Below, one piece after another: positions 26,575 to 63,702 of a stretch of DNA of 64,000 nt (the first letter of the stretch is position 1; every line of letters begins with the position of its first letter). The notes under the pieces were generated by a model that did not search any database, was not told the origin of the DNA, and saw only the letters and a list, made by a program, of their open reading frames with translations. Source of the DNA: Bilabrum cf. latius (taxonomy: Eukaryota); NCBI GenBank assembly GCA_965178125.1, contig OZ237759.1, positions 1 through 64,000 of the forward strand. The letters run 5' to 3'. A program made the position numbers and the translations under genes.

Positions 26575-26610
26575 ATACGCCATACTTGCACTGAATGAAG
26601 TACAATGAAT

Positions 26611-37138: not shown

Positions 37139-37312
37139 TGCGGATCCGGATGAGTTGGGCAGCACTGGGAAGAAGCCTCACCTGGATGGTCCGAAGCCAA
37201 GGGGATCATGTCATTCAATCCGTAACAGAAGTGGGACACATGGATCACTTCGGTTCATGGAGCTGTTCAAATTTTTTGCTTTGCTTCAGTCAAGGCAGCA
37301 GAATTTTCTGGC

Positions 37313-40295: not shown

Positions 40296-42194
40296 TCACG
40301 TGCAAGCAGTGGCCCCCGCGCCGCGCAACACTGCCCACCCTGTCCCCATCGGAGGCACAGCGATCGACACGCTTCCATCTGGCCCCGGGGCCACGCTGGA
40401 AGGCACCCACGGGGGCAGCTCGTCGTTGGGGCCCAGCTGCAGTGGCTTGCCGTTCAGCTCTACCACGGGGCTGTACAGGTCCCCTCCCGACGGAGAGAGG
40501 GCGTACAGGTCCGCACTCGTCACATCAGCACCAGCCCTCACGGTCAGGCGGATCGTGTCCAGAGTGGAGGCAGAGGCCCAGAACACCACCACATCGCCCG
40601 GGCCCGCACTCATGACACCATCTCCGCCAGCAGCGGCGCAGTGCGCGTAGGCCCTGAAGGTGCCGTTCAGGGGACCTCCTTGGAGCTGCGCCCCTCCGTC
40701 AGTGGTGGTGGCATGCAGCACGTTTGGCCCCACTAGTCGGTTGTAACCGAATCCGACCCAGTAGTCGGGAAACGGCTCGAAATTGCTCGTGTTGAGGAGC
40801 TCGTAGTGTCCCCCCACCAGCGTCTGTCGGTTGAAACCCACGACTCCCACTTTGGCCAACACCCCCAGAGCATCCAGGTAGTAGATGGAGGATGCGTAAG
40901 TGTTCGTCACACCGTCGATGCCGCCCCCGTTGTGGGGCCCGCCCTCGCCCAGCACGACTGGCCGAGGGGAAGGCAGGCCGACGGCGGTGTCGATCTCTTG
41001 GACCCACCCGACCAAGTCCACGGCCTGTTGTAGCGTGTTGTTTAGGAGCATGGGCCAGGTGGGTGGGTCGTTGTAGGAGTGAAACACTACGACGTCGATG
41101 GTTCCATCTCTGGCGGTGCGGTTCAGCGCAGGGAACCAGAAGTACGGCGCGTGGTCGAACGAGGGCTGCCCCGGGCACGGTCCGTAAGAGCCGGGCACGC
41201 CGGTCCGATCAGATTTAAACGCCTGATCACGCACCTGCTTGAAGACGTCAAATGACTCCATGTAGCTCTCAAAGTCGCTGTCGTAGCTGCGTGGGTCAAT
41301 CTCTTCACCAAGCTCGATCCCGTTCAAGACGCTAGCCTGCGTAGCGTTCTTGCCCACGTGCTCAAGAAAAGCCTGCGGGTTCGTCTTGTTCCACACCAGC
41401 TTTGTGCCGGATACCACAGGGTACGAGAGGCCCCACGTCAGGCTGGAGCCGGTGTATCGCATGAAATCGACAAACTCGGCCCAGCGCGTCATGTTGAGAC
41501 AGAGACCGTTCCCTCCCTGCTCTCCGCATTGAGCAGGTGTCATATCCCCTACCAAGTACTTCACAGACTTGTCCAGCCCGCCACCGACACGAATGGTGCC
41601 GGGGCGAAGCGCCCTTGTCAGCTTGCGCAGGCGGGCATCTTGGAGGTCGATGTTCAGCAGGCCAGCGTTGCCCCAGCCGCCAGACGCCCCTCCACCCGGC
41701 GGCCACCAGTCCAATGTAACTCCCATATACGTCGGTGGCAGCGTTCGGACTGGATCCGCGTCAGTTTTGATGTTCATCGCGACAGGAACGCTAGTTGGCA
41801 GAGGCGAAGGAGACGGACTGGGGGGCGGGGAATGGCCGCATCCCCCGCTCACTCGATTGGGTTCGCAATGATCAGGGTCATGCTACTAGTTGTCCTTGAG
41901 CCAGCAATTGTATGGGTCATCTGTCTCGATAGAAGCTGGAGGCGCCCATGTCCATGCGACGCAGCCTTGCGCACCTTTGCAATGGGTGCAGCAGTTCTCT
42001 GGAGTGTCCACGTTTGCGAGCTTTCCAAACTGATGTCCAGTGCCAATACACGTTGCTTTTTTCATGGCAGTGCAGGAGCAATCGCGGGTGGTGGGCGGGA
42101 ACGATTGGGATCCAAGCGCTGACGTCGCCTGTTGCACGCAATTCATGGCTGCAAGCGACACAAAGCAAGAAAACGTGGCCGAAGCTACTTTCAT
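40296..42194 (-). CDS. Secreted PAN/Apple-domain + GH79 (heparanase-like) glycoside hydrolase, 632 aa
   Basis: Signal-like N-terminus; Apple-type CCxxC..CVAWTW..CWLK..VSG spanning tandem TAG TAG (41883-41888); GH79 motifs TLDWWP, IRVGG, LGEGG, YYLDALG, RQTLVGGHY and PFPDYW. TGA stop. Confidence 0.85.
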
Positions 42195-42614
42195 TGCGAT
42201 TTTTCTTGTCCGGTAGAGGTTCTCCTACTAAGAAATGAAAGTACGCACTTGTCGGAATGAAAGGCGGATCGGATCGATCCGTCATCAGGGCGAGGTGCCT
42301 CATGATGGCCGGACTCGACCGGAGCAAATCGCCGCCGACCGGATCAGATGGATCGCTGAAGTGTGACGGCAGCGCACCATCCGGGCTGAAGCACGAGCAC
42401 GTATCACCTGGGGGGCCATCTGTGCGAGATGATTGCCTGCGATCTTCGTCTACTTCTCTCGCAGCGGTGCCAACCGCGCGCACAGTCTCCATCCTGTCGG
42501 TCTTCACCATTATTCTGATACACCTTTCGTCCTCAAATTTTCCTCCTCCTCACCGACTTTAAGGCAGTCTAGCTCTGCCATGATGGCCTGCTAGCAGTGC
42601 ATCATCACGTTGGA

Positions 42615-45213
42615 TCACAGGAGCACTGCCTCCCGGTTGGCAAGCACGACATCCTTGGTCAGCATAGTTAGGTCGTTCCGGGTCAGGCTGCGGCTGCGTT
42701 GCAGCTCATCTAACCACTTGCACGGGTATTCCTTACTCAGCGTCACAGTACCGTCGGCCACCACGTACGTCGACAAATCCTCCGGCCTATCAGCCGGGGT
42801 AGCCGGCGAGCCAGGGGCTGCAGCATGGGATCCAGAGGAAGCAGCTCCTGCTCCTGCTCCAGGTCTCGAGCCCTAAGACGTGCCCCCCGCCCCGGCCCGC
42901 CGCGCCGCAGCTCTGTCCCTGGTCCTCTGCACGGCCCTGGCCACCTCTCCCTCCAAGTGGTCCGCCCTCGACTCGAGCATCACTCGGGCCACTTGAGGGG
43001 CAGGCCGGCGGGTCGAGCACACGGGGCACCTGATCTTGCTCCACAGATTCATCGCGGTGCACTCGCACACGTAGTGCGTGGGAGCACCCTTCTTGCGAAG
43101 GGCCTTGCGGATCTTCTGAGCCTGCGCATGCTGTGGCTTCCACCGGGATGGGACCTCGGTGTCTTTGAACGACTTGGCCTTGCGACGGGCTGCGCGCCCC
43201 CCGCTGGCTGGGCCCGCCAAGGCCGCAGCCACGGCTGCCTCCTCCGCCGCCAGTGCCTCCTCTGCCCTGAGTCGGGCTTTCACATCGCACTAGGCGCCTC
43301 TTTCCAGCTCTTGCTGCAGCGTCTGGCGATGGACACCGGCCGATTTAGCTGACAATCCGGCATTTCTGGGCAGCGGGCCTCCTCGGGGAAGCACCAACTG
43401 GAAGGGGGCGGCCACCGGCGTCAGGCTGCGGCCCACAAAGTCGTACAGCGCCGCAAGGGTCAGGCGAGGGGAGGATCGGACCGTGACGAGGTCAGGCTGA
43501 GACTCGCTGCTCAGTGGGGTGCGCATGAGCTGAATCCTGAACCGGAGCGCCTGCTCTCCCACGGCACCGGCAGCCCCCTCCATTGCCCGCACCTCCTCCT
43601 CGGACTCTCCCGGCATGAGGGCAAACACGCCCTCTCGCCTCATGCGAGCCGCCACCTGCGCCCGCCTTGCCCTCTCCTCCCTGATTGCCTGCGCCGCCTC
43701 CTCCACTTGCTTGCGCATGGTCTCGGCCCCCTCGTCTTCAAAGGAGTACTCGCGCTGCAGACGAGGGGCCTCCATGCCGGGCGGAGGGCCCGCCCCCGCG
43801 CCTGAAGCAGGGCCATCAGCAGGTGGGGCGCCGGCGCCCGCATCGGCGACTGTTGGTGCTCCGGCTGCCGTGGCATCGGCACCTCCCGAGGCGGCCCCCC
43901 CCCACTGGGCACGGGCCACTCTCTTCCTCGCCTTCCTGTCGCGCGCCCGCTGGGCACTGGCGGCTGCCACGGCCTTCACGTCGTCCTGGGCGGGCAGCAC
44001 GTCAAGAGAGATCGTGCTCTCCCAGTCCCCTTGCCATGCAGACGCAGCAGGTGCTCGCGGCTTGAGCCCCGTGACGTAGAAGCTGAGGTCTCTGCCGTTC
44101 TCTTGCAGCTCGACCACCGAGCCGAGAGCCACGCACGAGTATTTTGTCATTTCGTACTCGAGGAATTGCTTCGGATCAGGCAAGTTGCCGAAATCCTTCG
44201 TGAATGGGAGCACTTGCACGTGCTCCAGCCTAGGCAAAGCCACAGGGCGGACGTACACCTCTGTCAGCTCGCCCGCAGCGGCAGCCCGCATGAGCCAGTT
44301 GGGCAGTACGAGCAAGTCGTCTCCGTCGGGGCCTGGCAGCTTGTGCGTCCCACCGATGCCGCAGTACGTTCGAATTCCGTGAGGGCTCTTGATTTCGAAC
44401 GTCATTGCTGCTCCTGATATGGAATCTTCCAGCACGCGCATGACAGAAGGAGGTATGAGCACTTTATCCCCGCGCTCGAAGCCGGGCGGAATGCCGATGT
44501 CGTCCCCCAACGTGCACTCGCCAACGAATGCGGCGGACGCGATGTAGAACGGCTTATGGAATCTATCTTTTGCTGCCGTGCCGACTTGGAGCGGCGCGGC
44601 ACTCTTTCGCGCCAAGTACCTCGCTCGACATGCATGGAAAGCTAGATCGGGGTAGGGTGTGCACGTGCCAATCTTCACCCTTGCTCCCTGCTGTACTAGG
44701 CTTTCCCTAGCCCATGTAAGAATCATGTCCATGGTGAAGAGCTTGGGATTCCAGCCTTCGCTGAAAATTGGTGGCAAGCAAATAGCGCCTCCAGCCACTC
44801 CGCCAGTGAAACGGACTAGAAGCGGAGACCGGAGCATAACAAGCGGTGGCTAGCTGGGGTAATCGCTGGGAAACAGCACCTCTAAATGCATGCATCCGTC
44901 ACCAGCTCCTTCTTTTCCCGCAGTCTGGTCCTTGTGCTGCAAAAGGTCGTCTTGCAACTGCGTGCGATTGGATGGTGTGAGGTTTCGAGGGTGGGAATAA
45001 CGCTAGGCGCGATATAGATCGTTAATCTCGGCGAATATATCACACCTGTTTGCCATTCGGGGTATTGTTGTCAAAATTTCTGATTGTCACGCGCCACAGC
45101 CTTGGATTGGTACCGCTTGGATCAACTGCGATAGTGCTGCTTGATTGCTCCCTTCGCACGCGATCGAGCTACGATGCTATGGCAGCAGCAGTGGCAGGTA
45201 GTATTGAAGCCAT
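42615..45213 (-). CDS. UBE2Q-like E2 domain + UFD1-like + UBX-like + RanBP2-type zinc finger protein, about 836 aa, intron 44958-45045
   Basis: E2: LEVLFPSDYPS*PP...GGAIC...GW. UFD1: GDKVLIPPS, LPNWLM, PKQFLE..MTKYSC. UBX: TLAALYDFV. ZnF: YVCECTAMN-x6-CPVC. Fragments are joined across TAGs; TGA stop at 42615. Confidence 0.75.
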
Positions 45214-45418
45214 TGCGCTTCCTGATTCTGTCTGGTGTAAAAGTTACCATGTTTTGTGATCTCGGGATTTACGCGATATCCACACGCAACTGCTGCTGCC
45301 ACGCAAGAACTTTGGAACTGCACAGCTTAAGGTACTTTTTAGGTACCCTACACCTAGAGGTCAGCTCACTACTCAGAGTCGAATCGAGGCAAAGCAGCGG
45401 AGGGTTGATGATAGCACG

Positions 45419-48400: not shown

Positions 48401-48442
48401 AAACGCAGCGATCTGCAACAACCTGAGCGAGCTCGACAGCAT
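45419..48442 (-). CDS. RecQ-family DNA helicase, about 1000 aa (start uncertain)
   Basis: FRPLQ, PTGAGKSLIY*, SPLLALIQDQ, DEAHCVSSWGHDFRP, LTATA, ATLAFGMGID, QECGRAGRD and CRR..CDVC motifs in one frame across 7 TAGs. TGA stop. Confidence 0.92.
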
Positions 48443-48605
48443 CAGTATTTATTCTGCCATGTGTTCCTGCAAGTATTGCCACAAGTTCTGCTGCGAGGTT
48501 CGTTGTGGTGAGGAGCAGGTGCTTTCTTGCATTCATCTTTGAATTGGTGCCTCATCGCATAGTTTCCGTTCGCGGCACACTTCTCGCCCGAGGCTGCTGC
48601 AGATC

Positions 48606-51131
48606 ATGGCTGCTGCAATCGATTACGCTGCTGGGAACTCAGTAACGAATGGAGGCTATGGTGGGGGTTCAACTGACCCGGGCCCAGGGGTGTTTATCGG
48701 GAACACTCCGACAGGCACTGAAATGCGGTGGGCCTCTGTCGAGCGCCAGGACGCCGAGCTCCGATCTACGGTAGGTGCGCTGCACGCCAAAGATGTAAAT
48801 GCAGTCGAGTTCACGCCACTTGCGGCGGCAGCAACTCGCATCAGTGACGTGCTTGCAGAGCGATACCCGTTCACTCCAGCGATGGATTTTGCCTCGTTCG
48901 ACCCGAGGATTGACCCAACCCAAAGCAGCGTCGCGTTCGGGAGACGCGCTTGGACCAAGCTTGTGGGTGTGTTGACAGAGGCTTCTTCGTCCACAGAGGA
49001 TCGCAGGCAGTCGCTGGTAGCGTTGCTGAACCGCGTGGCCCGACCGGAATCTCGCAGCAGCATGGTTCGAGCAGGCGCCGTGGAAGCCCTGGCAAGCTTG
49101 CTGACGAATGATAGTGATCCTGCGCTCCAGCTAGTTGCATCGATGGCAGCCCATATTCTAGGCCGTCTGTGTGACAGCTGGGAGGGACGCAGAGCCCTTG
49201 AACGGGAGCCATCCGCCGTGGATAAGCTGGTGCGATGTCTGGGCAGCGACGAGCCGTCTCTTGCGGTGCGTCGATCAGCTGCCGGTGCTCTGGCTAGACT
49301 TGCAGGTACTGATGACGGCTGGGAAGTGATCGTGTGCGGACAGCAGGGCGCAGACCTCCCAGGGGAGAGCACCGCAGCCGCTGCTTCCACCGAGCAAGCC
49401 AGCGATGCAGCACTCCCGGTGAGTGCTGCTCGCGGCGAGAGCGGGTGCGGCCCGCCCAGCGTGCTCCAGCGCATAGTGGATGCCTGTGCCGAGGGCCACT
49501 GTCCCGAGGCGGTCGTTTGCCTGGCCGGGATCGGGGCCCGGCATGAAGAGGGAGCCGCCATGCTGCTGCGGGCGGGGGGCATGCGCATGGCGCTGCAGGC
49601 CATCCAGGCGGCGAAAGCAGAGTCTCAGGGGGCAGATCCAGAGGCGGGATGCGGACCCTTCGTGGCGGCTGGGCCAGGGGCTCCCGTGGGCGCCGGTCCG
49701 ACGATCTCCAGCTAGCCCAAATCCGAGATCCTCGCTCTGGCGGCTCTGAGCTGCATTCGGAGCATGGCCCAGGTGTGGGTGGGCAAGCTGGCCGCTGTGG
49801 GTCACGCGGCAGGGAGTCGTGATGCAGGTGTAGAGGACAGCACTGCCGCAGCCAATGCCGTCGCCCAATGCCTCGCGGCACACCAGGCGGATGCGGTGCG
49901 GCGGGCCGCGGCCGGCGTGATGCTGCTGCTGCTCGTCTCCACCGAAGGCAAGCTGGCTTGGTGGGGATCCAAGGCCTGCAGGGACAGCATCGTGGCTGCT
50001 CTGGGCGACGAGGATGCGCGCGTGCGACGGGATGCAGACCTGAGCCTGGTGCAGCTGTGGCAGCTCCCGATTGCGCGCAGGCCTCTGGCCCGCATGGTGC
50101 TGCTGGCTCCGTTTGTAGGACTGGTGGATAGGCAGATTCGAGAAGCCTCCATGGTTGTGGAGAAGCCAATGAGCGGTGGGGAGGACAAGGGCCCAGCCGG
50201 CCACACGTGGGGGGACGGGGTGGATGCTGCGGATGCTTCCCTGCGGGCCCATCGGTGCAGCGAGGAGGCCAGTCGGGTGCTAGTCAGGGCTGTGGGCCTC
50301 GGGGCCGCGAGGGATCTCGTGGCTCTGGTCGCGGCGGGGCTGGGCCCGACTGCAGGTGAGGAGGTCGTGGGGGAGGGTGGGGGCTCAGGTCCGGCGGGGG
50401 AATCTGGGGAGTTGGGGTCAGGGCTCGATGGGAAGGGGGAGGGAGAGGGACACCAGGCCAAGGTAATCCGCAAGGCCGCAGCTCGCGCCCTTGCCCTGCT
50501 TGCCTCGGGCCATTTCGGGGCAGGTGCAGTGTCCAAAGGGGCTGCAGGAGCGAGTGCAGATGAAGACAAAGGCGGGGCAGCGGCTGTTGACCGCGAGGCG
50601 GTGAGCAGCAGGCTGGCGAGCCGGGGCCGGGAAGGTGCTCTGGCTGTAGCTGGCACCCTGCGCCCGCACGCGCGCCTGCTTGGTGCTCTGGCCGAGGCGG
50701 GGCGGGCCGGCGACGGCTCCCTCTGCGCCGACCTGGCCATCAGCCTGTGCGCAGTGCTGCGAGAGTCAGCCGTGCTGCGGGCGCACTCCCGTAAGGTGCT
50801 CGCTGGCGAGGAGCAGCTGGGGGAGCGAGTGCAGGGAGCAGGAGCAGGAGCAGGAGCCGGAGCAGGAGCAGGAGCAGGAGCAGGAGCGGGAGGGAGCGGC
50901 AGCACCAAGAGGAGGACTGCCAGGGATGCCGGCAAGAAAGGAGTGGCATAGTCTGCAGAATCTACCACCGCAGGCCGAGGCGCTGGCACCAGCGGTAGCG
51001 GCCGTGATGCTGGTAGCGCTCCGTCCACGGCGCTCAGCGAATCCATCGCGCGGGCGTGCTCCCTCGCGGATGAGGTGTCCCCTGCCCGTCCCGGTGAAGA
51101 GCTGGCGAGGCTACTTGGCTCCTTAACATGA
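48606..51131 (+). CDS. RSPH14: Armadillo-repeat radial spoke protein 14-like, 841 aa
   Basis: IDPTQSSVAFGRRAWTKL and VRRAAAGVMLLLLVSTEGK resemble RSPH14/RTDR1 blocks as I recall them. Two TAGs (49713, 50949) are read through; TGA stop. Confidence 0.65.
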
Positions 51132-52540: not shown

Positions 52541-53915
52541 TCACTGCAGTGAGCACGCCGTGATGGAGCCATCGACGCGAGCCACTAGCCCCACGGTGCC
52601 TGCAGGAGTGCTTCGGAATGAATGGCACGGCGTGCTTGATGCACTTGATGCCATGGTGCCCCCGCCACCGCCAGAAACGCTGGCTGCCCCTCCCTCCGCC
52701 CCCTCGATGCCACGCTCCTCGGGGCCACCAGCAGCCCGGAACACGTGGAGCGCATCTCTGCGCCGTGCATCCCATATGATAGCCTGCCCGTCCAGGCCAG
52801 CCGACAGCACCCTAACGCCGTCCCCCAATACCTGAACAGACGACACCGCATCCCGGTGCCCAGCCAGGGTGCACACAGTGGAACCGCAGCTCGATTGTTC
52901 CCTGTCAGCTGTCAATTTGCCCGCAATCACGCCACCCGCAGCAGGGGGGGCCCTGCCAGAAGCATCTACGAGCCGAAGCTCCCCGCTGGTGCCCCCGACC
53001 GCCAGCACCCGGCCATCGGGGGACCAGTGCACACAGCCGCTGGCGCACGCAGACGGAAGCACCCGGCCCCTCCACACCGTCGATCCACACTCACAATCAA
53101 TAATTCGCAAGTATCCGCCCGCATCCACGGCTGCCAATGAGCGCCCGCACGCGCTGGACTCCAGACCAGACACGGCAGGGAGGGTACTGGGTCCTGGCTC
53201 CACCAAAGAGGCGGACACAGCTTTTGCCCAGCTACGGTCGGCGTCTAGATCTCCAGTCGTGTGCACAGAGCACAAACTTATACCCCCTCTGGAGTAGCCA
53301 ACCATCAGTTTCGACGCTGAATCGCCTGCACGGCCGGCCAGAGGGGCAATGCAGACTGGGAATCCCAGCTTAGAGTCTGCGAGGCATGGTGCGGTCGGTG
53401 GCTCCGCTTCTCGTGAAAGTGGCACGTGCGTAGCACCTACGTCTCGGCACGCACGTTCGGGTGCCTCGTGCACCGCAGAGGCGGCATCTGGGGCTCCCAG
53501 TGCAGCTGCGCGCAACAGGTGCAGGCGACCATCCGTGTTTAAAGCACCAGCAAGAACGTCACTGCCCGGCACCGCCAAAGACTTGAGGGAAAGTACGCTT
53601 GAGCCTTCTAGCTAATATGAATTCCGATGCGATACGGCGACATGGGCTGGAAGAGGCTCCCCGCTAGATTCGCTACCTCGAACGTAGCCAAGCTCAAGCC
53701 ATTCTCCGCGGTCTGAACTAGCAACTGCGCTCGTTTCCGATACCCACACAGCATCTGAAAGAGGTGCTCGATGCAGGGAATGTACAGTTTCGATTTCGTT
53801 GTACTGCGGGCGCGGGAGGCCCAACCCTCAAACAAATGATTGTAGTGCTCCCGAAGTTCATAAGAAAAGCGCTATTCGTCGATGGTACCACCCTTCCAAC
53901 AGTGTATCTTACCAT
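52541..53915 (-). CDS. WD40-repeat protein, Ski8/WDR61-like; ATG-only first exon, intron 53804-53912
   Basis: WSPDGRVLAVG and TLAGHRDAVSSV...LSAGLDGQAIIWD motifs. ATG|GTAAGA...CCGCAG|TAC splice. One TAG at 53612; TGA stop. Confidence 0.7.
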
Positions 53916-54044
53916 GGTTCTAAACCAGCCTTGGTTGGATCCTGAGACTTGCAAGTGTGCAGTGTACACGGGGGTGTAGTACGCTCCGAGTTCAACAAGT
54001 CACGCCGTTGAGGATTACGCTCACAAAGCGCACGACCGAGGGCC

Positions 54045-57000
54045 ATGGAACCTTTGAGCATGCCTGACTGGCTTCTTGAAGAATCTAGGGAGTCCGCATC
54101 TCCAGCAGCGGCAAGTTCGGTCAGGATGCTTCGAGGAGAGCAGCCTGTCGGGAGCTTGATGGCTGCCACGGCGTCTCTGCATATCGTCGTTGCCAGGGCC
54201 CGCGAAGTCTTGGACCCAGCGAGTGGAAGTTCATCAGCCCCACTGAATCCTCGAGTTCGACTTTCCTTGGGGAATCCGGCAAGCCCGCACAGGGCATACC
54301 CTACGCTCGTTGGTCCGGCCGCAAAGGTTGCCAGTAGCAACCCAAACTGGGGCATTGTAGAAAGCGGAAGCATCTTATTGAATCCAACAGATATGTGAGG
54401 CAGTCATAGATCGCCATGCGCAACTCTGTTGCCCAGATCTCGAGAATCTAAACCCTTGCTTACCTAGATCCATCGAGTCTCCGCAGGGCAACCGGTTTCG
54501 TTGATGTTGACATCGTTGTAGATTCAATTGCGGATGCCAAGCATTCTAGTAAGGATGCTACCGAGTAGGGCGCTGGAGAGTCTCCATATCGGCGAGTAGC
54601 AGGGTTTCGATTACAGCTGTCAAACATGGGGTACGGCCTACTGGAAGATTGGATATAGCTATCGCCTTCTGGCAGCATGCTGGTGCTCATTCGAGTGGCA
54701 AGAATCATTGCTGTTGACGAAGGCGGCTGTCCCGTCGTATCCCTTGACTTGTCTACGCCAGTCACTGCTTCCGGAGCAGCAGACACTTCCAACTCCTCCG
54801 GCAAGAAACCAAGCCATTCTGCGGGCAGGCATGCGGATGTTGGAGCAATGCCGCGATTCAGTGCTAATGTGCCAAGTACCATGCATGCTGCTCCCCCAGG
54901 CGGATATGCGCCACCGCTAGGCGGAGCTCCACGAGGAGGCAGCGTGCCACCCTCCCCCCCGGGCCCATTTCCCATGCATGTGGGGGCAGGCATGCCCATG
55001 ATGTAGCCCGCGGGGGCAATGCCCCTTGGTGCGGCTGCAGGCGCGTCCACTGTGATGGTCCCAGTGGCCTACCCCGGCGGGGGCTACGTGATGACACCCA
55101 TGCTCATGCAGGGGTCTCCCCAGGTCATGCAGGGGGGAGGGCAGGTCCATGCGCCCGGCCAATACTACCAGCCGTGGTCTCCGAGCTAGGGAGGGGGCAG
55201 CCAACCGATGCCGATGCCAATACACTCGGCAGTGGCAATGCAGCAGCCCGCTGGCCCAACTTACGTGGTTGTGCAGGGCGCACAGCATCAGCAGCATCAG
55301 CAGCATCAGGTGCTACTGCAGCACCCTGTCGAGCCGCAGGGAGCCTAGGTTCAGCCCGCCAGAGCACAGGCTGCTAACACGCGGGGCGATGGTAGTGTCG
55401 GGAGAAACTCTGGAGGACCGTACGAAGAGGACCGCAGGGCAAGAAGAGAGCGCGTCATCAGCGCGGCGCAGTCTGGCCCGCTCCCGGACAGAGACTCCCC
55501 ATTGCAAGCCCGCGTCCGAAGCAGTGCTTCCGTTGGATACCTGGGGGCTCGCAGTCGCTTCCACAGCGCAGAGTCCGGAGTATCAGACGACGTGTCTCAC
55601 TCTGGCTCGGCGGGGTTCCCCGAGCACCCCAGAACATACGCCCCTTCGGTGGGGAGTGCAGGCCGGCTGGCAGGCGACTTGCATCAATCCAAGTCCTTCC
55701 AATCGTCCTCAGGAATGGAGGCGCAGGCTCCGCGCATCCGAGCCAGCCCTTCCGTGGAGCAGGACGGCGGCTGGCGGGCCTACCACCAACAGCAAGACGC
55801 TCGATCGGCAGGAGGCCTCACCCTGCCAGACCACGAGAGCGTCCTGTCCGCTGACTCGGGGTCGCACCACGGCTCTGGCGTGTTCCCTCTGCGCCAATAG
55901 CCACCTAGTCGGGGCGAGCCAGCGGTCTATCCCGGGCAGGGAGGCTCCCCTGGGCGCACGTCCACTCGGTCCAACGGGCACTTGGGTGGCGCGTCTGCCG
56001 CGTCTGGGTCGCCTCGGGGTGCTTCCAGGTTGGGGCCGCCGGGGAGCAGGGGAGCAGAAGGGAATGAATTCGGCCGCCAGCGAGGGATGAGAGCTGCTTC
56101 GGATACCCGTGCGATGATGAGCATCGCCACTCGCCGCAAGTCGGAGGGCCGGCAGGTGTGGGCGGGGCAGCAGGTCCAGCACCAAGCACCCGCGCCGCAA
56201 GATCCCGCTGGCACTGGCGCTGACAGTGCTGCCGATGAAATATACCCGTAGTCTGGCTCTAGCAAAGAGCGATAGGCTATGCCAGGGTCATTGCGTCACC
56301 TAAGGCAGCATGGGAGCAGCTCAAACCTGCGGCAGCAGTCTGGAAGCCGGCTGCGCCTGGACAGTGACGGCCGCAGCGTGAAGTCGATGGGCGTGCGGTT
56401 CGCATCTGACGGAGAGCACGGTGCAGATGCACTGGGGGGGAGCGATGCAGGCTCGGCATGGGGGCAGCACAGCATTGACGGCGGCCTTCCTTCGGCTGGT
56501 CGGGTGCATGGTGAATCGATGCCGGGTGGAGGGGCGGAGGGCAGGCCCAGCGCGCAGCAGGCGGTGCTGTCTGGGCTGGACGCGATCGAGGAGGCCGAGG
56601 CTCGGGAGGACTCAGACTATCTGCAGCAGCCGGGCGGACTGCACGGGTCGGTCATGGGTGCGGCCGGGCAGCCGGAGCTGTCTCTGTCGACCCCTCTGCA
56701 CGACGCGGAGGAGTCCTATCGCCTGGAGGCCATGGCCAACGGGTCCTCCAGGCGCAGGTCGCGCACCACCCCCGCTGCACCCGACTGGTTTACCGGTGCG
56801 CAGTCGCTGCTGGGGACTGCGGGAAGCTTTAGTGGGGGGCAGGTGGGGGCATCAGCGGGCATGGGCGCGCAGTCAAGTGGGGCCGCAAGGCCGCAGGCGC
56901 GTGAGAGCGTGGCCGGCGCTGAGACAAGGCAGGGGCAGGGGCCTGCCGCAGGGCCCTGGGGCTCCACCAACAGGCAACGCTCCTTGACAGGACTGTCTGC

Positions 57001-57154
57001 AATATCATCGATGCCTGGTAGCAGCCCCAGCCAGTTCAGCGTGGCCACAGCCCCGCAAACGGCTGGCGCCATCTTCTCATTCTCGGCCGCACTGGCAGCT
57101 GAGCAGGCAGGCTCCGTGGATCGATCGAGGCTCAGCTCTGATGCCGGATAGTGA
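54045..57154 (+). CDS. Protein with N-terminal C2-like domain and a long low-complexity tail, intron 54395-54486
   Basis: LHIVVARARE..NPRVRLSL..NPNW..DWI*LSPSG is C2-like. Four same-frame fragments are joined across TAGs; it ends TAG TGA. Confidence 0.65.
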
Positions 57155-57241
57155 TGGAGTGCTCAAGTTACGCATCTGTGTTTTATTTGCTTTGAAACTT
57201 TGTGTTGGATGCAATCGTGTGAGACGCCGCGTCGCGCTCAG

Positions 57242-58792
57242 TCACGTCAGCTTGGAAGGCTTTGAAGCTGTGCCCAAGGCAGTTCTCGACTCTTGCTCGT
57301 GCCTCGTGGCCGATAGTAGGGCGCCAAGGAATTCCTTCATTCCAATAGCACAGCTCGGGGGCGCCTTGTCTTGCCCGTCGTCCATTGAGGCAGCCCCTGC
57401 TCCTCCAGTAGCGGCCCCAGGCCCGCTCGCGCCAGCCCTCGCCCTGAGTGCCAGAGCCACCGACCTTGCCGAGCTTGCTGAAAGGTGGAATGCATGCGCC
57501 TGGAATGGTAGCTTCCTGAGAGACCTGCCGCTGAGTCCCTCTGCGTCCTGGGCGCACCTGTACAGAGCCGCGGTGGCTGGCCCCCCCGCGAGGGTCCATG
57601 ACGGCTTCGGAGGCGGGCCAGAGGATGCGCTGGACCCGCTGGCTGCGGGGTGCAGCGTGGAGCCAGGCGTCTTCACCGTGGCTGCTCCTGCTGGCGGCGC
57701 CACGGGCATACCTTCGGATGGGTTCACGATTCCTTTGCGCACGAGCTCCACGATGGAGGACAGCAGGATTCGGTACCTGGCGACCAGCACGGGAGGGCCA
57801 ACGTACTGCTTCAGGTCAGCTCGGTCCAGAAATGCGGGGTCAATGGCCTCCGTCAGATTGGACGTGGCCAGGACTAGGACGTTCGGCCTCGCCCTGAGCC
57901 GATCCACCTCGGTCAACAAGGCATTCACCACCCGAACGGCATCGCTGGGCTCGTTGCCGTTCATTGACGACTGACGCGCCGCGGTAAGGCTCTCTACCTC
58001 ATCGATCAGAACGCAGACAAGCGTGCTTCCATCCTCTGCATCCGCGAGGGCGTGGATACTCTCGAAGAGCTTGGCCACCAACTTGCCGCTCTCGCTGAAC
58101 CATCGCGAAAACAGGCTATGGCTGTTGATCTCCAACAGGCTTGCGGTAGGGTACGTCTTGTTCAGCCTGATGGCTAGCTTGTGCGCCAATGCCTTGCAAA
58201 TGGTTGTTTTCCCTGTGCCGGGGGGCCCGTGAAAGAGCAGCAAACGGTTCGTGGTTACCATAGCGCTGTCAACACCGTGCTCAGCAAACAGAATTGCAGT
58301 CTCTGCATAGCGGAGCAACCTTCCCTTGACATCGCTGTCATCAAAAACCAATGAATCCCACAGCGCATCGAACCCGAAATGCGGAAGAGCCCAGTGCTGA
58401 GCAGCAGTCACAACCTCGCCATCCCCTTCTTCGCCACCGCCGGCTTCTTCAAGGCTAGGAGGGTCCATCGACAAACAAAAAGGATAGACCTAGACAAGTG
58501 CCTAGAATCCCGGGACTCTTGATACTTCTTTAGCGTCGCCATCCAATATGCTCGCAACCTTCGTCGCCAGCATAGATGCTCGCATGGTCGAATCAAGGCC
58601 TTCCGTAGGGATCTCTGCGCCCACAGCAAGCATCGCAGTAGACGATTGGAGATATGAGACTATGTGCGACTCGATTTCTTCAAAAGAGTGCTCTCCATCG
58701 GGATCTACGGACACCTCAACTGCGAGGTGCAAGAGGGAGGTCGAACAAGCGCAATTCGAAATTTGAGAACATGGTGGCTTCGTTGATAGCAT
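57242..58792 (-). CDS. PCH2: Pachytene checkpoint AAA+ ATPase PCH2/TRIP13
   Basis: NRLLLFHGPPGTGKT, EINSHSLFSRWFSESGKLV, LIDEVESL, EPSDAVRVVNALLT and DPAFLDRAD motifs. The N-terminal domain (AVEV...) is joined in frame across two TAGs near 58490-58504. TGA stop. Confidence 0.93.
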
Positions 58793-58947
58793 CCTTGCAA
58801 GCAATATCAATTATTGTAATAGATCACACCTTCAACGATGTTCTTCTTCGATTCCATGGCTACACAGAAGCGATGTAAAGTTTCCGAGCGAGAGCAAGAA
58901 GCAAGTTCTCGAGTTCAAGTGGTTCCGCATCATGCGCGGCGCCTACT

Positions 58948-61900
58948 TCAAGGCTGGACTTCCGAAGCCCCTGCAACAGGTTTGCTTGGCTTTGACGTCG
59001 CCGGCGCACCGTCGTCGGAATCCTGGCGAATCGGAATGCACGTAACCTTGAAAACTGATCCGACGTCAGCAGCGGCCAGGCTGCGCGTAGCTCCATCCAG
59101 TCGATCGCTGGCAGAGGAACCGGTGTCCTTCCAGCCAGGCGTGCCCTCTCTCGAAGCTTCTGTGGTGCGCTCTCCATCCGCAGACACCCGGACCCATTCG
59201 AACCGAGAGCTGCTGGAGGGCCTGCCCCCGTGGTACCACACCCTGGCGCGCAGCTGCTCGCCCTCCACAGGCCTCCCCTCAATCCACACGGACCGCGCGC
59301 GGGGAATGCCGGGCTCGACCGCCGCACCAGAGGGGGGCACCACCTCGATGGCGGACCCCTCGCACGACCTGACGGCCTCCTCCAGGGCCGCCAGCGAGAC
59401 GGGCCCACGCGCCCTGCATGCCCGCTCCAGGGCTCGGCAGGCCCCCGGCGCGCTGCTCCTCACCAGGCACACTGCCATGACCCGCCGGCCGCAGTACGAG
59501 CCCACCAGCGGAAGCCGCAGCGGGGAGCGGGCGGCGGCAAGGCCCTGCGCGACGTCGAGGGCAGTAGCCCCGGCTGGAGTCTGGAAGGGGTGCAGGTTGG
59601 TCCCGGCGCCTGGTGCCCCGCTCCCTGGCTGCGGGTGAAACACGTGCATGTAGGTCTCCACGCTGGCTCCTTCCCGAGCGCGGGCCAGGGCAAGGAGTCT
59701 CTGGGCAGCATGACCCACAGCATCGGAGGGCACTGCCGGGCATACTCGGTGGGGTACCCCCAGAGCATCCATCAGGCCGGAGGGATCGACGGGTGGGCGG
59801 CACACACGGCGGAACACAGCCTCGCCCTCTTTGTCAGGCAGCGGGTCGGTTCCGGACCCAGACGAAGGATCAAAGGCCTGTGTTTTGGCTTCATCGGCGT
59901 GGTTGATACTGCAAAGCAGGCGATCTGGGAGTACCTCGGCTGGCATTTCCTTTTCCTTGCCCTTAGCATTGCTGTGCATCCGCGCGAGGCTCTTGGCCTT
60001 GCGGAGGCCCTTACCCTTGGACTTCTTGCGCTTGAGATCGCGAGATGGAGGAGCCGTGGGAGGAGGCCGAGGCGGCAGGCGGGATCCCGAAACCGAGGCC
60101 TTGACAGCAGCAGCTGCTGTGCCTGAAGTGTCAGACGACTTGACAGCAGGCGCTGAGGTAGCCTGTTGGTCTCTATAAGACGACGGTACTGCAGCACCTT
60201 CCGTCCCTGCACCCGGCGAAGCCCCCCCCTCTTCGTCAGCGCCCTCAGCAGCACCTACCTCTGCATCGCTGGGCAGACCCTCTCCTGCAGTCCCACCGCC
60301 ACCCTTGCTGTGCAACCCATCCTGCCCTAGCTTCACCTCTCTCTTGTCGTCGACCTACTCCTCCTCCTCCTCTTCCTACTCTTTCTTATCCTCTACATAC
60401 CATCCCACCTCCAGCAGTGTTCTCTTGGACCCTGGCACCTGGATCACCCAGCCACTTGGCACCAGCGGCTGGGCTACATCTTGGACAGCCACCCCAGGGT
60501 CAGTTGCAGCTGCGTCATCACTAGCGAGCAATTTGGACGCGGCATCTTCTCGTTCCTCCACGGCTGAGTAGACCCGCTGTATGGCTTCCGGTGGGGACAG
60601 GACCCCGTCACTAGGCCCAGCACCAGAGCCAGCACCAGCACCAGCTTCCCCCGAACTGCGCTGCAGGGGCACGAGCTGCAGCGAGTTGCCCTCTCGTAAC
60701 CTACCCACAGCCGAGCACACTCGCCGCCTGCGCTCGCAGAAGAGTGTGTGGTGGTGCGGTGCGACAACCATGGCGACCGAGCCGCTGGAGGAGGCGCGTG
60801 CCGCTGGGTCCGAGCTGGGCACCCAGGAGGTGGAGTTGGCTGCGTCTGTGATGGCACCAGATGCGTGGGCAACGACCGCAGATCCAGCAGTTCCAGCAGA
60901 TCCAGCAGCAGCATCAGCTGCGGCAGTAGAGCCCCCCGCGTCCTGCGATGCTGTGGTGGACCCTGGGCCACCTGCAAATGGTGCTGGGGCAAGTGCCGAT
61001 GGTGCCGCGCCAGCCTAGCCCAAGAGAGAACTAGTTCTTGCTGCATCTGGCACTGCTGCTTCCATTTCCAGCATAATCTGCAGCTGTGGCCTGGCCTCGC
61101 CAACGGGCCCCGGGCTCGGCAAAGGAGGAGCCCCAGCAGAGGCACCCACTGTGGGGTGCGGCACTGCCACTGCCACTGCAGGGGGGAGAGTAGTCCCACT
61201 GGCTGTCCTTGACGCAGAGCCAGCACTTACCGATCCATTCGCTTCCATGCTCGGCACGATGGCGCACCAGGCAAGGACCCCAGCGCCCCCGCCCCTGGTC
61301 GCACTTCCCCGGACCGAGACCAGCAACACGTCGTGGCGGCGCACCTCGATGGTCTAGCGATGGGACCACTCCCAGCGCATGCCAGGGACAGCCTCAGAGC
61401 CCCTGGCGTGCAACTCAGGTGTGCATTCGCTGCAAATCCAGTCTCCTGAAGCGCGACCGCGAAGGAGCTTCTATACCACCGCAGCCTGCGATTCGCCGGT
61501 GCCACGAACTGCAGTGCCAGCGGATGATGGGCTATCTGGGCTGACAAGATGCCGAGACTCCAAGCTGGCAAACTTGGATGCCCGCTCCTCCGGCGTTCCT
61601 CTCGGCGAGAATCGCCAAACGGATGCGGCTGCGACGCAGCTCCCCGTCGGAGAGATACCCCGGACTGACGAAGTCAACAGGTCCCTCCCGTAGCCAGCTA
61701 GGGCTACCAGATTAAGTAAGAACTTAGTAGCGGGTCCAGTCTCCGCCAAAGAGCTTGGCCCCGTTGTCAGCGGACCAGGCTTGGTGCGGTCGTTGCTCGT
61801 GGTTGATGCATCACCAGGGCCCTTAGATTGAGGCTGTGAAGCTGAGGTATCAGCGCTAGATTTAGACTGCGAACTCTACGAGTTTGATTGCCCCCCTAAC

Positions 61901-61953
61901 ACGTTTCCGCCACCACTTCCATGCCCAATGCAATTTCCTATTGCTAATGGCAT
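58948..61953 (-). CDS. About 1000-aa protein with a C-terminal AIR9-type (A9, Ig-like) repeat
   Basis: VWIEGRPVEGEQLRA..YHGG..SRFEWVR..ADVGSVFKVTCIPIR resembles the A9 repeat. Single frame across several TAGs; TGA stop. Confidence 0.65.
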
Positions 61954-62073
61954 GCAGCCACACAGCTAGAAATGGGAGGCAGCAACCAGGATCATTTGGC
62001 CGGAGAACGCCTATGGAAATAGACAAGCAACACCTTAGTGCGGCCCTGCTGTGAAAGGCAGCGAACTACAACA

Positions 62074-63702
62074 ATGGTGGCATGGAATGCAGCGAGACGA
62101 ATCGCTCGTCACTGGCCCGCAGGGGCGCATCCGGCTGCCTTGCAGACCACCACTGCAGCCGTACGTGCAGACTGGTCCGATACCTTGCCTACAGATGAAG
62201 GTTGTGCTGCGATGAATGGTCCTGCTGAGCGATGGACCGAATACACGAGCCCAGCACCAGCACAGTTCTTGGTGGCTGGGTTCCGAAAGTAAGGATGATA
62301 TCGGCCTAACTTTGCGGAGCTGAAGCCCCGCCTCTGCTTGAATATATTTTCATTCAACTAGTATTGTTGTATTTGCAGGAAACTATGCGTAGCCGAGCCG
62401 GGGCTAGATCCCCTGCAGGCTCAGCCTCCGCACGAGGTCGCCAAGCTCCGAAAGGTACGCGCGAGCAGTACTGCGGCAGCCAAGATCAAGGAAAACAAGA
62501 AGAAATCAAAGCAGTTATTTAATATGATGGGGAGCATTTAGCAGTAGCACGATGAGCTTGAACAAAAGAAGCGTGCACTAGATGTGGAGAAGCAGCAGCT
62601 CGCCGCGCTGCGAAAAGAGAAGATGTTGCTCGTGAAACTCATGCAGCATTTGGTTAGGATTGGGGTAACTGAGCGACCAAAGCCGCGCTAGACGGAACCG
62701 GCCGAGCAGGCAGGAGGCACCGGTCGTCCCGGTATCCTGTCGATCCGAGCCCCTGCGTCCAAGGCAAGCGCCGATTCTGCAGGTGCCCCTGGCAGCGCAT
62801 CCACACCGGGCACAGGGAGATCAATAATCCCACGCCGATCAACCCCAACAGCGGCGGCTCCATTGATTCGCCGCAAGTCCCGCCTCACGGACGCATCTCC
62901 CGTGGCAGCAGGCACGCCGGCATCGAGGGGCGCTGCGGGGGCTCGGCGCGTGGACAGCCCCCTCGCCACTCCAGTGGAGAGAAGACAGGAGTCATCGTCA
63001 TCTTCTCGCTTCCCCGTAGGAACACCGAGGCGATCTGCAGAGCCATTCAGCGCGCACACACACAGAGACAGAGACAGAGACAGAGACAGGGGCAGGGGCA
63101 GAGACAGGGGCCCGTCCGTGCAACCAGTCCCCGGTCGCTCCGGGGTGAGGTCAGCGCCAAGGGCCGGGCAGGGGCGGCTGGGGCCGGGAGGGGGAGGGGG
63201 GCTCCGAGTGACGCTCAGCTCTGACGCCACCCCGGCTGAATCTGCCACAGGTGTGGGGCGGCATCACCCGGCCAGCCACAGGTTCCGTGGTTCAGGAGCA
63301 AGCCATGGCTCCAGCCTCGGGCAAGACCTGCATCGCGGTCCCTAGGGCACTGGCCCACCGGTTGGGCTATCTAGCGCCATGCCTGCCCCTGCCAGCTCCA
63401 CCCAGGCAGGCAGACCCGTGAGTCGCCCCCCGACGAGCGCGTCCTTTCGACGAGACGGGACCCAGTCAGCGGACGGCTGGGGTCGGGGTGGGAGCGGCAG
63501 CGGAGCGGCGGAGGGCTGGCACCGAGAGGCAGGGCACGGGTATGGGGGCCATGCGCACGGCCATGACAGGGGCCATGACAGGGGCCATGACAGGGACCGC
63601 GGGAGCGGCCGGGGCAGAGGCAGAGGCCGGGGCAGAGGCGGGGGAAGGGGCTGGGGCGGGGGTGGGCATGCCGGGCGGGGTGGTAGCAGGGGCAGGTGGT
63701 GA
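62074..63702 (+). CDS. Hypothetical coiled-coil and RG/RD-rich protein, intron 62289-62378
   Basis: GTAAGG...TTGCAG intron; coiled-coil I*Q*HDELEQKKRALDVEKQQL; the frame runs across TAGs to TGA at 63700-63702. Confidence 0.55.

What the first reader, a model, noticed from the sequence alone, without database searches (positions are those of the whole stretch)
40296..63702. Non-standard nuclear code: TAG read as Gln
Seen: nearly every gene is broken only by in-frame TAG, never by frameshift or TGA, and all 14 reconstructed CDSs in the window end in TGA. TAG at 48305-48307 occupies the conserved Gln of RecQ motif I (GKSLIY*V versus GKSLCYQL). TAGs also fall inside an E2 YPxxPP motif, inside an Apple domain (tandem TAG TAG), in the PCH2 N-terminal domain and in Gln-rich tracts. 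Known: UAR=Gln occurs in ciliates, some diplomonads and some green algae. Inference: TAG is a sense codon for Gln in this GC-rich flagellate, which may be an unreported reassignment.
Basis: partly seen in the sequence, partly recalled or inferred. Interest (0 to 1): 0.88.

Follow-up and report, generated by a model that had tools for sequence, protein, structure and literature searches.

The report
TAG read as glutamine in a stramenopile
In this GC-rich protist chromosome end the stop codon TAG sits inside nearly every gene and is most likely read as glutamine, a known kind of genetic-code change apparently not yet reported for this group.

Summary
In 10 gene models (7016 in-frame codons) there are 37 TAG, 0 TAA and 0 TGA; off-frame rates are 7.4, 2.5 and 13.0 per 1000. 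All 15 long frames examined end in TGA. Contigs from three public runs lack five GT..AG introns yet keep TAG unchanged: 28 of the 33 TAGs in the laid stretch lie on listed pieces with 0 differences. Editing, splicing and pseudogenes are therefore unlikely.

Glutamine is clearly the best reading. The RecQ motif I column is Q in 116 of 120 homologues. A related metagenome contig, L001, also carries in-frame TAG. Its dihydrolipoamide dehydrogenase TAG aligns to window CAG in a protein 427/468 identical. Ten ortholog TAG sites give Q +11.3 bits against −1.0 for the next residue.

TAA is not a sense codon: 0 seen against about 11.5 expected, and it ends a conserved gene in L001. The code is therefore UAG-only to Gln, as in Iotanema and some ciliates.

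Best named hits are all stramenopiles. Five literature searches found no such code reported there. The tRNA and eRF1 could not be examined because no genome is held.

The parts
40296..42194 (-). GH79 glycosidase with N-terminal PAN domain; 2 in-frame TAG (tandem, 41883-41888); ends TGA
   Evidence: Pfam Glyco_hydro_79n 89.6 bits and PAN_4 34.7 bits, both above cut-off; TAG positions
42615..45213 (-). E2-like + UFD1-like fusion gene. Exon 1 is 45046-45213, the intron 44958-45045, exon 2 42615-44957. TAGs at 45169-45171, 44850-44852, 43290-43292 and 42873-42875; ends TGA
   Evidence: Pfam UFD1_N2, UFD1_N1 and UQ_con, all below curated cut-offs. Full-length homologues found. Run X5 contig of 2914 nt skips the 88-nt intron with 0 other letters. 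Codons
45419..48442 (-). RecQ-family helicase; 7 in-frame TAG, including 48305-48307 at the motif I Gln; last TAG 7 codons before the TGA
   Evidence: Pfam DEAD and Helicase_C; PDB RECQL5 E 1.5e-63 with Q aligned; column Q in 116 of 120; positions
48606..51131 (+). ARM/HEAT-repeat protein; 2 in-frame TAG (49713-49715, 50949-50951); ends TGA
   Evidence: Pfam Arm 23.9 bits; covered by X5 contigs with 0 other letters
52541..53912 (-). WD40 protein with a 109-nt intron at 53804-53912; 1 in-frame TAG (53612-53614); ends TGA
   Evidence: Pfam WD40 37.3 bits; X8 contig skips 53804-53912; GT..AG ends
54033..57154 (+). Gln/Pro/Gly-rich protein with no Pfam family; intron 54395-54486; 9 in-frame TAG, the last directly followed by the TGA stop (57149-57154)
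   Evidence: X5 contig of 3081 nt and an X6 contig skip the 92-nt intron with 0 other letters
57242..58829 (-). TRIP13/PCH2 AAA+ ATPase; intron 58720-58829; TAGs at 58502-58504 and 58490-58492. The CAG at 57500-57502 is where a 97%-identical relative's ORF call stops
   Evidence: Pfam AAA and AAA_lid_TRIP13_C; homologues; columns; P0005 and P0397; joint seen in X5 and X6
58948..61995 (-). AIR9-like protein (A9 Ig domain at the C-terminus); 7 in-frame TAG, two flanking a poly-Glu run (60355-60378); ends TGA
   Evidence: Pfam IG_AIR9 41.6 bits; X5 contig 58875-62066 with 0 other letters
62289..63702 (+). Coiled-coil / Arg-Gly-rich protein with no Pfam family; intron 62289-62378; 4 in-frame TAG; ends TGA
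   Evidence: The 90-nt intron is skipped in X5, X6 and X8 contigs
37313..38827 (-). Dihydrolipoamide dehydrogenase; 0 TAG here. Its CAG in FPF-Q-ANSRA is TAG in the L001 ortholog
   Evidence: Pfam Pyr_redox_2 256 bits
15375..22361 (-). Subtelomeric ORF of 2328 codons with no Pfam family; 11 in-frame TAG, no TGA or TAA; last TAG 4 codons before the TGA

Best explanation
The organism is a GC-rich eukaryote, probably a stramenopile. It uses a nuclear code in which UAG is an ordinary sense codon for glutamine, making up about 14% of Gln codons here. UGA is the usual terminator, and UAA remains a stop or is unused.

Shown here:
- TAG is in frame in 9 of 10 gene models.
- TAG is retained in spliced transcripts.
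- TAG is shared as a coding feature by a second, related organism.
- TAG matches Gln at conserved and orthologous positions.

Inferred from what is established for other UAG/UAR=Gln lineages, not seen here:
- decoding by a tRNA-Gln with anticodon CUA, derived from tRNA-Gln(CUG);
- an eRF1 that no longer recognises UAG but still recognises UAA and UGA.
For: **Sense codon**
- 37 TAG, 0 TAA and 0 TGA in 7016 in-frame codons. Off-frame rates are 7.4, 2.5 and 13.0 per 1000.
- 15 of 15 long frames end in TGA.

**RNA**
- Contigs of runs X5, X6 and X8 skip five GT..AG introns. Contig depth differs by gene, from 5 to 51 in X5.
- By my reading of table 8, 28 of the 33 TAGs inside the laid stretch lie on listed pieces with 0 other letters. 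14 of these are on contigs that also lack an intron.

**Second organism, L001**
- The E2-UFD1 ortholog (481 of 790 aligned positions identical) has 7 TAGs of its own. The DLD ortholog (427/468 identical) has 2.

**Residue identity**
- RecQ motif I column: Q 116, E 3, S 1 of 120.
- First TRIP13 TAG column: Q 50 of 119, next E 13.
- L001 DLD TAG aligns to window CAG. The column across 113 matched homologues is Q 47, S 35, A 17, M 10.
- Ten ortholog TAG sites pair with H, K, Q, A, K, Q, R, A, Q, Q. True Q codons in the same two genes pair with Q 52% of the time, other residues 0-3%. Log-likelihood is Q +11.3 bits, next R −1.0.
- All data combined: Q 22.5 bits, next −2.8 (the DLD site counts twice there).
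- The window codons opposite L001 TAGs that are Gln are CAG, CAG and CAA, plus CAG in DLD.
- The ORF call of a 97%-identical relative (P0005) stops exactly before window CAG 57500-57502. A second relative (P0397) has Q there.

**TAA is not Gln**
- CAA:CAG is 55:177, which predicts about 11.5 in-frame TAA. None is seen.
- The L001 E2-UFD1 ortholog ends in TAA at the C-terminus shared with the window protein and five other homologues.
Against: - The only direct residue from a very close relative disagrees. P0246 is 95% identical and has Leu where the window has TAG 42873-42875. The stretch is low-complexity and unconserved.
- Six of the ten ortholog partners are not Q: H, K, A, K, R, A.
- The second TRIP13 TAG column is mixed: R 16, Q 15, F 14, H 14, V 14.
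- Two AIR9 TAGs flank a run of six Glu, which would also suit Glu.
- The deep E2-UFD1 alignment gave no clear residue at any TAG column.
- No tRNA gene was found in the window or in L001. No Rfam match was found. No genome is held. tRNA-Gln(CUA) and eRF1 are therefore untested.
- The tool labels X5 'RNA? (probably DNA)' and X6 and X8 'RNA?'. That they are RNA is my inference from the skipped introns and the uneven depth.
- Contigs drop rare variants, so partial editing cannot be excluded.
- Frames read with TAG as a residue cannot end in TAG by construction. TAG lies 7 codons or fewer before the TGA in 3 of 11 frames, so some terminator use of TAG is not excluded.
- Everything rests on 13 genes from two organisms.
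Confidence: 0.85

Rival explanations
1. Both UAA and UAG mean Gln (the ciliate, diplomonad and ulvophyte type, NCBI table 6). TAA is simply unseen because the genome is GC-rich.
For: No window gene ends in TAA: 15 of 15 end in TGA. GC3 is 0.67. UAA and UAG usually change together (PMC11687900, passage read).
Against: CAA is 55 against 177 CAG, so about 11.5 in-frame TAA would be expected beside 37 TAG. None is seen. In L001 the E2-UFD1 ortholog stops at TAA exactly at the conserved C-terminus. TAA is the in-frame codon bounding 9 of the 15 frames upstream.
Confidence: 0.04
2. TAG is a sense codon for a residue other than Gln, such as Glu, Lys, Arg or Leu.
For: A 95% relative has Leu at one window TAG. 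Ortholog partners include K twice, R once and H once. Two TAGs flank a poly-Glu run. Three of 120 RecQ homologues have E in the motif I column.
Against: Combined log-likelihood is Q 22.5 bits against R −2.8, K −3.8 and E −4.5. Leu is not among the eight best-scoring residues. In the ortholog-only test, Q scores +11.3 and R −1.0. The DLD column has no E, K or R among 113 matched sequences, and the 91%-identical ortholog has CAG.
Confidence: 0.04
3. UAG is ambiguous. It is read as Gln inside genes but still terminates near the 3' end of some mRNAs (a position-dependent stop, as described for Condylostoma and karyorelict ciliates), or it is decoded by very efficient readthrough rather than a dedicated tRNA.
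For: TAG lies 7 codons or fewer before the terminal TGA in 3 of 11 frames: RecQ 7, the Gln-rich protein 0 (TAG TGA), and the 2328-codon ORF 4. About 0.6 such frames are expected from the overall TAG density. That figure is my arithmetic, not a tool test.
Against: The same pattern is expected as a relic of ancestral TAG terminators now read through to the next stop. Up to 9 TAGs per gene need efficient decoding. No data here show where translation ends. The sample is small.
Confidence: 0.06
4. The TAGs are not translated. The genes are pseudogenes, the TAGs lie in introns, they are edited in the mRNA, or they are assembly errors.
For: Some TAGs in the stop-to-stop frames do lie in an intron or 5' leader, for example 45003-45005.
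Against: 0 TGA, 0 TAA and no frame breaks in 7016 codons. 28 of 33 TAGs sit unchanged on listed contigs from other runs, 14 of them on spliced contigs. TAG falls at invariant functional positions. An independent metagenome contig shows the same habit.
Confidence: 0.01

Closest known systems
UAG-only to Gln nuclear codes: the fornicate Iotanema spirale, the ciliate Protocruzia tuzeti and two phyllopharyngean ciliate lineages (as listed in PMC11687900, passages read; NCBI table 15 has the same TAG=Q assignment, recalled)
   Same: UAG is sense and best fits Gln. UAA is not co-reassigned. UGA is a stop.
   Different: A different eukaryotic lineage: best named hits are stramenopiles. The genome is GC-rich (about 60%) and TGA is the terminator in 15 of 15 frames. 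The tRNA and eRF1 were not examined here.
UAR to Gln codes (many ciliates, Hexamita-type diplomonads, Streblomastix, ulvophycean green algae, Amoeboaphelidium; NCBI table 6)
   Same: A stop codon is captured by glutamine. The likely route is a tRNA-Gln anticodon change (inferred).
   Different: Here TAA is absent in frame (0 seen against about 11.5 expected) and terminates a conserved gene in the relative L001.
UAG to Leu in an uncultured rhizarian and some ciliates; UAG to Ser in Scotinosphaera; UAA=Lys with UAG=Glu in an uncultured ciliate (PMC11687900 passage)
   Same: UAG is uncoupled from UAA.
   Different: The residue differs. Leu, Ser and Glu all score far below Gln here.
Ambiguous stop/sense codes (Condylostoma, karyorelicts; UAA in Blastocrithidia nonstop; abstracts seen in the listings)
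   Same: TAG is sometimes found just upstream of the real stop.
   Different: No evidence here that TAG ever terminates. A dedicated stop (TGA) is present in every frame.

Membership tests
UAG-only to Gln nuclear genetic code (Iotanema/Protocruzia type) | In-frame UAG in conserved, expressed nuclear protein-coding genes, with no other disruptions | tested here: met
   37 TAG, 0 TAA and 0 TGA in 7016 codons. TAG is unchanged on contigs that lack introns.
UAG-only to Gln nuclear genetic code (Iotanema/Protocruzia type) | UAG positions align preferentially with Gln in homologues | tested here: met
   RecQ Q 116/120. TRIP13 Q 50/119. DLD ortholog CAG and column Q 47/113. Q +11.3 bits against −1.0. 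Combined 22.5 against −2.8. Based on about 14 informative sites.
UAG-only to Gln nuclear genetic code (Iotanema/Protocruzia type) | UAA keeps its stop meaning and is not a sense codon | tested here: met
   0 in-frame TAA against about 11.5 expected. TAA terminates the L001 E2-UFD1 ortholog at the conserved C-terminus. No window gene ends in TAA, so its use as a stop in this organism itself is not shown.
UAG-only to Gln nuclear genetic code (Iotanema/Protocruzia type) | UAG no longer used as a terminator | tested here: inconclusive
   15 window frames and 3 L001 frames end in TGA or TAA. Frames read with TAG as a residue cannot end in TAG by construction, and 3 of 11 frames have a TAG 7 codons or fewer before the stop.
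UAG-only to Gln nuclear genetic code (Iotanema/Protocruzia type) | A tRNA-Gln with anticodon CUA is encoded | not testable with these tools
   No tRNA in the window or L001. No Rfam hit. No genome is held.
UAG-only to Gln nuclear genetic code (Iotanema/Protocruzia type) | eRF1 with altered stop-codon recognition; peptides with Gln at UAG | not testable with these tools
   eRF1 is not in the window. No proteomics tool is available.
UAR to Gln code (NCBI table 6) | Both UAA and UAG occur in frame as Gln codons | tested here: not met
   TAA occurs 0 times in 7016 in-frame codons. TAA acts as a stop in L001.
UAG to Leu or UAG to Glu codes | UAG columns align with Leu or with Glu | tested here: not met
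   E scores −4.5 bits against Q 22.5 overall, and L is not among the eight best-scoring residues. One close relative has L at one unconserved site.
Stramenopiles (taxonomic placement) | Conserved genes group with stramenopile sequences | tested here: inconclusive
   All named hits among the best 120 for DLD are stramenopiles. The top named TRIP13 hits are oomycetes, brown algae and Cafeteria. An E2-UFD1 homologue is from Platysulcus. No tree was built and no rRNA is available.

The most novel reading that the evidence does not exclude
This would be the first nuclear stop-codon reassignment in stramenopiles. It would be shared by a small clade: the window organism, relatives 95-97% identical, and a metagenome relative about 61-91% identical. 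It would also be recent enough that former TAG terminators are still visible a few codons upstream of the present TGA stops. UAG may still terminate at mRNA ends, making it a position-dependent stop/sense codon outside ciliates and trypanosomatids.
Probability: 0.1. Interest if true: 0.82.

Novelty: new member of a known kind. Interest (0 to 1): 0.62.

Why it matters
UAG-only reassignments are rare, because UAA and UAG normally change together. How eRF1 and tRNAs tell the two codons apart is still unresolved.

A GC-rich, compact, apparently culturable lineage would be a useful comparative case. Its sequence turns up in runs from seven studies, several labelled as other organisms. It has close relatives that use TAG this way. 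More distant homologues are called full-length under the standard code: P0247, P0248 and P0402 for E2-UFD1, and P0404 to P0406 for DLD.

There is also a practical side. Standard-code gene calling has already chopped this organism's proteins into fragments in public protein collections, for example P0005, P0246, P0252 and P0444. Its genes are therefore mis-annotated wherever it occurs, including as a companion in other organisms' data sets.

Tried and rejected

- No genome is held for the window. Genome-wide codon inference, a tRNA-Gln(CUA) search, eRF1 and 18S were therefore impossible.

**Searches that found nothing**
- ARAGORN and Rfam found no RNA gene in the window or L001.
- No RNA holder is listed on record for the stretch. 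The three runs I treat as RNA are marked as guesses by the tool.

**Analyses that did not discriminate**
- Raw ORF-length totals under different stop sets do not discriminate. Removing TGA opens even more chance frames in GC-rich DNA, so I relied on homology-supported frames instead.
- The deep alignment of 62 E2-UFD1 hits (P0247 to P0309, without P0252) was too noisy to read any TAG column.
- The RecQ TAG at residue 215 lies in an insertion with no homologous column: 120 of 120 gaps.
- The first MAFFT run on RecQ timed out. I repeated it with faster settings.

**A misreading I corrected**
- I first thought relative P0246 had Asp at a window TAG. The alignment showed that this site is a true Gln codon. 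The real TAG site pairs with Leu in P0246.

**Frames left out**
- The frame 51173-52201 (+) has no family and a composition unlike a protein. I did not count it as a gene.
- The L001 frame 1-588 has no recognisable relation to the window's RecQ.

**Readings rejected**
- Pseudogenes, editing, TAG inside introns, UAR=Gln, and TAG as Leu, Glu, Lys or Arg. See the rival explanations.

**Not attempted**
- No structure prediction or complex prediction was run, as they do not bear on the question.

**Limits**
- Supplements of papers were not consulted.
Full report
**What the window is.** The 64-kb window is eukaryotic and GC-rich, 0.48-0.65 per 4-kb block and about 0.60-0.63 in the region of the finding. 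The left 37 kb looks like a chromosome end. It holds 16 arrays of CCCTAA, all in one orientation, interleaved with 155-bp, 22-bp and 55-bp tandem repeats. It also holds an exact 6.5-kb duplication, 4505-11034 = 20105-26634. From 37 kb onward, ordinary nuclear genes are packed on both strands.

**Checking the observation.** With TAG read as a residue, long frames appear that carry recognisable domains. These are:
- GH79 + PAN;
- an E2-like + UFD1-like fusion, whose three Pfam matches are all below the curated cut-offs;
- RecQ;
- an ARM-repeat protein;
- a WD40 protein;
- TRIP13/PCH2;
- an AIR9-like protein;
- dihydrolipoamide dehydrogenase (DLD);
- two frames without any family;
- a 2328-codon subtelomeric ORF.

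All 15 of 15 long frames examined end in TGA and none has an in-frame TAA. In 10 gene models (7016 codons) I count 37 TAG, 0 TAA and 0 TGA. In the five other frames of the same DNA the rates are 7.4, 2.5 and 13.0 per 1000. TAG is thus about as common in frame as out of frame, while roughly 91 TGA and 17 TAA would be expected without constraint and none is present.

One qualification applies: the tandem TAG TAG (41883-41888) sits 3-4 residues past the end of the PAN match rather than inside it.

The genes have introns. Contigs from three other public runs (X5, X6, X8) skip five short stretches with GT..AG ends: 44958-45045, 53804-53912, 54395-54486, 58720-58829 and 62289-62378. A few TAGs in the stop-to-stop frames fall in these introns or in 5' leaders, for example 45003-45005. 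They are not coding.

**Are the TAGs in the mRNA?** The tool labels these runs only as guessed RNA, and X5 even as 'probably DNA'. However, their contigs lack introns, begin and end near gene borders, and have depths that differ by gene (5 to 51 in X5). I therefore treat them as transcript assemblies; this is an inference. On my reading of table 8, 28 of the 33 TAGs inside the laid stretch lie on listed pieces with 0 other letters. 14 of these are on contigs that also lack an intron. The exon 1 TAG of the E2-UFD1 gene (45169-45171) is covered as well.

The five TAGs not on a listed piece are three in RecQ and two in TRIP13; 352 further pieces were not shown. Contigs cannot exclude a minor edited form. 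Even so, editing or splicing as the general explanation is out, and so is gene decay.

**A second organism with the same habit.** Searching the E2-UFD1 protein against 1.84 billion representatives gave short fragments 72-95% identical. They begin or end where the window has TAG. This is what standard-code gene calling would produce.

One of them led to a 6490-bp JGI metagenome contig, L001. L001 carries:
- the E2-UFD1 ortholog, with 481 of 790 aligned positions identical and 7 in-frame TAGs;
- the DLD ortholog, 427/468 identical with 2 TAGs.

The TAG sites differ between the two organisms, which allows reciprocal reading. More distant full-length homologues show no breaks in standard-code calls. 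These are P0247, P0248 and P0402 for E2-UFD1, at about 35% identity, and P0404 to P0406 for DLD, at 76-79%. The habit therefore seems confined to a small clade.

**Which residue?**

Conserved columns:
- The RecQ motif I TAG aligns to Q in human RECQL5. Across 120 homologues the column is Q 116, E 3, S 1.
- The first TRIP13 TAG column is Q in 50 of 119 homologues, with E next at 13. The second is mixed: R 16, Q 15, F 14, H 14, V 14.
- The L001 DLD TAG lies in FPF-x-ANSRA. The window ortholog has CAG there. Across the 113 of 120 homologues that matched my pattern the column is Q 47, S 35, A 17, M 10. One of the 47 is the window's own protein.

Ortholog pairs:
- The ten TAG sites alignable between the window and L001 pair with H, K, Q, A, K, Q, R, A, Q, Q.
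- In the same two genes, true Gln codons pair with Gln 52% of the time. Other residues pair with Gln 0-3% of the time.
- An empirical likelihood gives Q +11.3 bits and R, the next best, −1.0.
- The Gln codons opposite L001 TAGs are CAG, CAG, CAA and CAG.

Close strains:
- The ORF call of a 97%-identical relative (P0005) stops exactly before window CAG 57500-57502. Another relative (P0397) has Q there. I could not see the codon itself.

Adding deep columns and pairs gives Q 22.5 bits against −2.8 for the runner-up. The DLD site is counted twice in that sum.

**Evidence pointing the other way.**
- A 95% relative (P0246) has Leu at window TAG 42873-42875, in a low-complexity stretch.
- Six of the ten ortholog partners are not Gln.
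- Two AIR9 TAGs flank a run of six Glu.
- The deep E2-UFD1 alignment was uninformative.

None of the alternatives (Leu, Glu, Lys, Arg) survives the conserved columns.

**TAA.** If TAA were also Gln, the CAA:CAG ratio of 55:177 predicts about 11.5 in-frame TAA beside the 37 TAG. None is seen. In L001 the E2-UFD1 ortholog ends in TAA exactly at the C-terminus shared with the window protein and with P0247, P0248, P0249, P0255 and P0392. TAA is also the in-frame codon bounding 9 of the 15 frames upstream. The code is therefore UAG-only to Gln.

**Mechanism.** It is shown that TAG is a frequent, unedited, in-frame codon matching Gln. It is inferred, by analogy with other UAG/UAR=Gln lineages, that a tRNA-Gln(CUA) decodes it and that eRF1 has lost UAG recognition. 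Neither could be examined. There is no tRNA or other Rfam RNA in the window or L001, and no genome is held.

**Who is it?**
- All named sequences among the best 120 DLD hits are stramenopiles: diatoms, Chrysophaeum, Chrysoparadoxa, Pythium, Tribonema and Pinguiococcus, at 67-73% identity.
- The best named TRIP13 hits are Bremia, Ectocarpus, Ascophyllum, Cafeteria and Phytophthora.
- One E2-UFD1 homologue is from Platysulcus tardus.

No tree was built and no rRNA is available, so 'stramenopile' is probable, not proven. 'Flagellate' is unsupported. The stretch occurs in runs from seven studies, several labelled as different organisms. The organism may therefore travel as a companion in other cultures.

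**Comparison with what is known.** From passages of PMC11687900:
- UAG-only to Gln is known in Iotanema spirale, Protocruzia tuzeti and two phyllopharyngean ciliate lineages.
- UAG to Leu is known in a rhizarian and some ciliates.
- UAG to Ser is known in Scotinosphaera.
- UAR to Gln is known in ciliates, Hexamita, Streblomastix, ulvophytes and Amoeboaphelidium.

No stramenopile is listed there. Five full-text searches found no report of a nuclear TAG reassignment in stramenopiles (listings and abstracts only, apart from that one paper). Subscription journals and very recent papers are not covered, and I cannot search by the organism's name.

**A loose end.** TAG lies 7 codons or fewer before the terminal TGA in 3 of 11 frames: RecQ 7, the Gln-rich protein 0 (TAG TGA at 57149-57154), and the 2328-codon ORF 4. 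From the overall TAG density I would expect about 0.6. That is my arithmetic on a small sample. The simplest reading is that these are former TAG terminators now read through to the next stop, which would suggest a fairly recent change. A residual terminator role for UAG at mRNA ends is not excluded.

**Verdict.** It is refined to a UAG-only to Gln code in a probable stramenopile clade. It is a new member of a known kind of code variant, of solid interest to people who study genetic-code evolution, and it needs genome-wide confirmation.

Noticed in passing
window 1-37200: Chromosome-end architecture. There are 16 CCCTAA arrays, all in one orientation, up to 34 kb from the window's start. They are interleaved with 155-bp satellites, 22-bp arrays (9445-11016, 13945-15158, 25045-26572) and a 55-bp array (34403-37145). 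A composite unit of about 853 bp (telomere-like array plus 155-bp repeat) recurs five times at 53-4515.
   Followed up: partly
window 4505-11034 and 20105-26634: An exact (100%) 6.5-kb duplication at an offset of 15,600 bp. The copy of the large ORF at 4011-6815 matches only the first 755 or so residues of the 2346-residue frame at 15375-22415. It then runs into a telomere-like array, as if a broken copy had been capped.
   Followed up: partly
window 15375-22361 (-) and 7481-9178 (+): Two subtelomeric ORFs of 2328 and 565 codons with no Pfam family. They carry 11 and 4 in-frame TAGs and no TGA or TAA. They are long enough to be real genes of unknown kind.
   Followed up: no
window 57149-57154, 45443-45445, 15390-15392: TAG lies 0, 7 and 4 codons upstream of the terminal TGA in three frames. 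About 0.6 such cases would be expected. These may be relics of former TAG terminators, or a hint of residual stop function.
   Followed up: partly
window 51173-52201 (+): A 342-residue frame with no family match and a Cys/Arg/Ser-rich translation that does not look like a protein. Contigs from other runs do cover the region (X5 50908-52674, X6 51445-52122). It may be a UTR, a non-coding transcript or a gene I could not model.
   Followed up: no
window 42615-45213 (-); L001 966-3236: An unusual fusion of an E2-like domain, a UFD1-like double-psi barrel and a C-terminal region with a CxxC...CxxC motif (zinc-finger-like, judged from memory). Full-length homologues of 660-950 residues exist, one from Platysulcus tardus. 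DLD and this gene are neighbours in L001. Their homologues P0406 and P0402 are each recorded from a JGI contig of 23,234 bp, perhaps the same one.
   Followed up: partly
window 46900-47830 (-), RecQ residues about 208-362: The RecQ helicase has an insertion of about 110-150 residues between the two RecA-like lobes, relative to human RECQL5 (query 207 to 363 against chain 201 to 248). One TAG lies in it.
   Followed up: no
window 42615-52600 (runs): The stretch is held fully or largely by runs from several studies labelled as at least four different organisms, plus small shares in 'algae' and 'protist' metagenomes. The organism may be a frequent companion or contaminant of other cultures. Only X5 to X8 were laid; the small-share runs were not, so no habitat claim is made.
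   Followed up: no
window 60355-60378 (-): In the AIR9-like protein, two TAGs bracket a run of six Glu codons (KKE-TAG-EEEEEE-TAG-VDD). This is the only context that would read more naturally with Glu than with Gln.
   Followed up: partly
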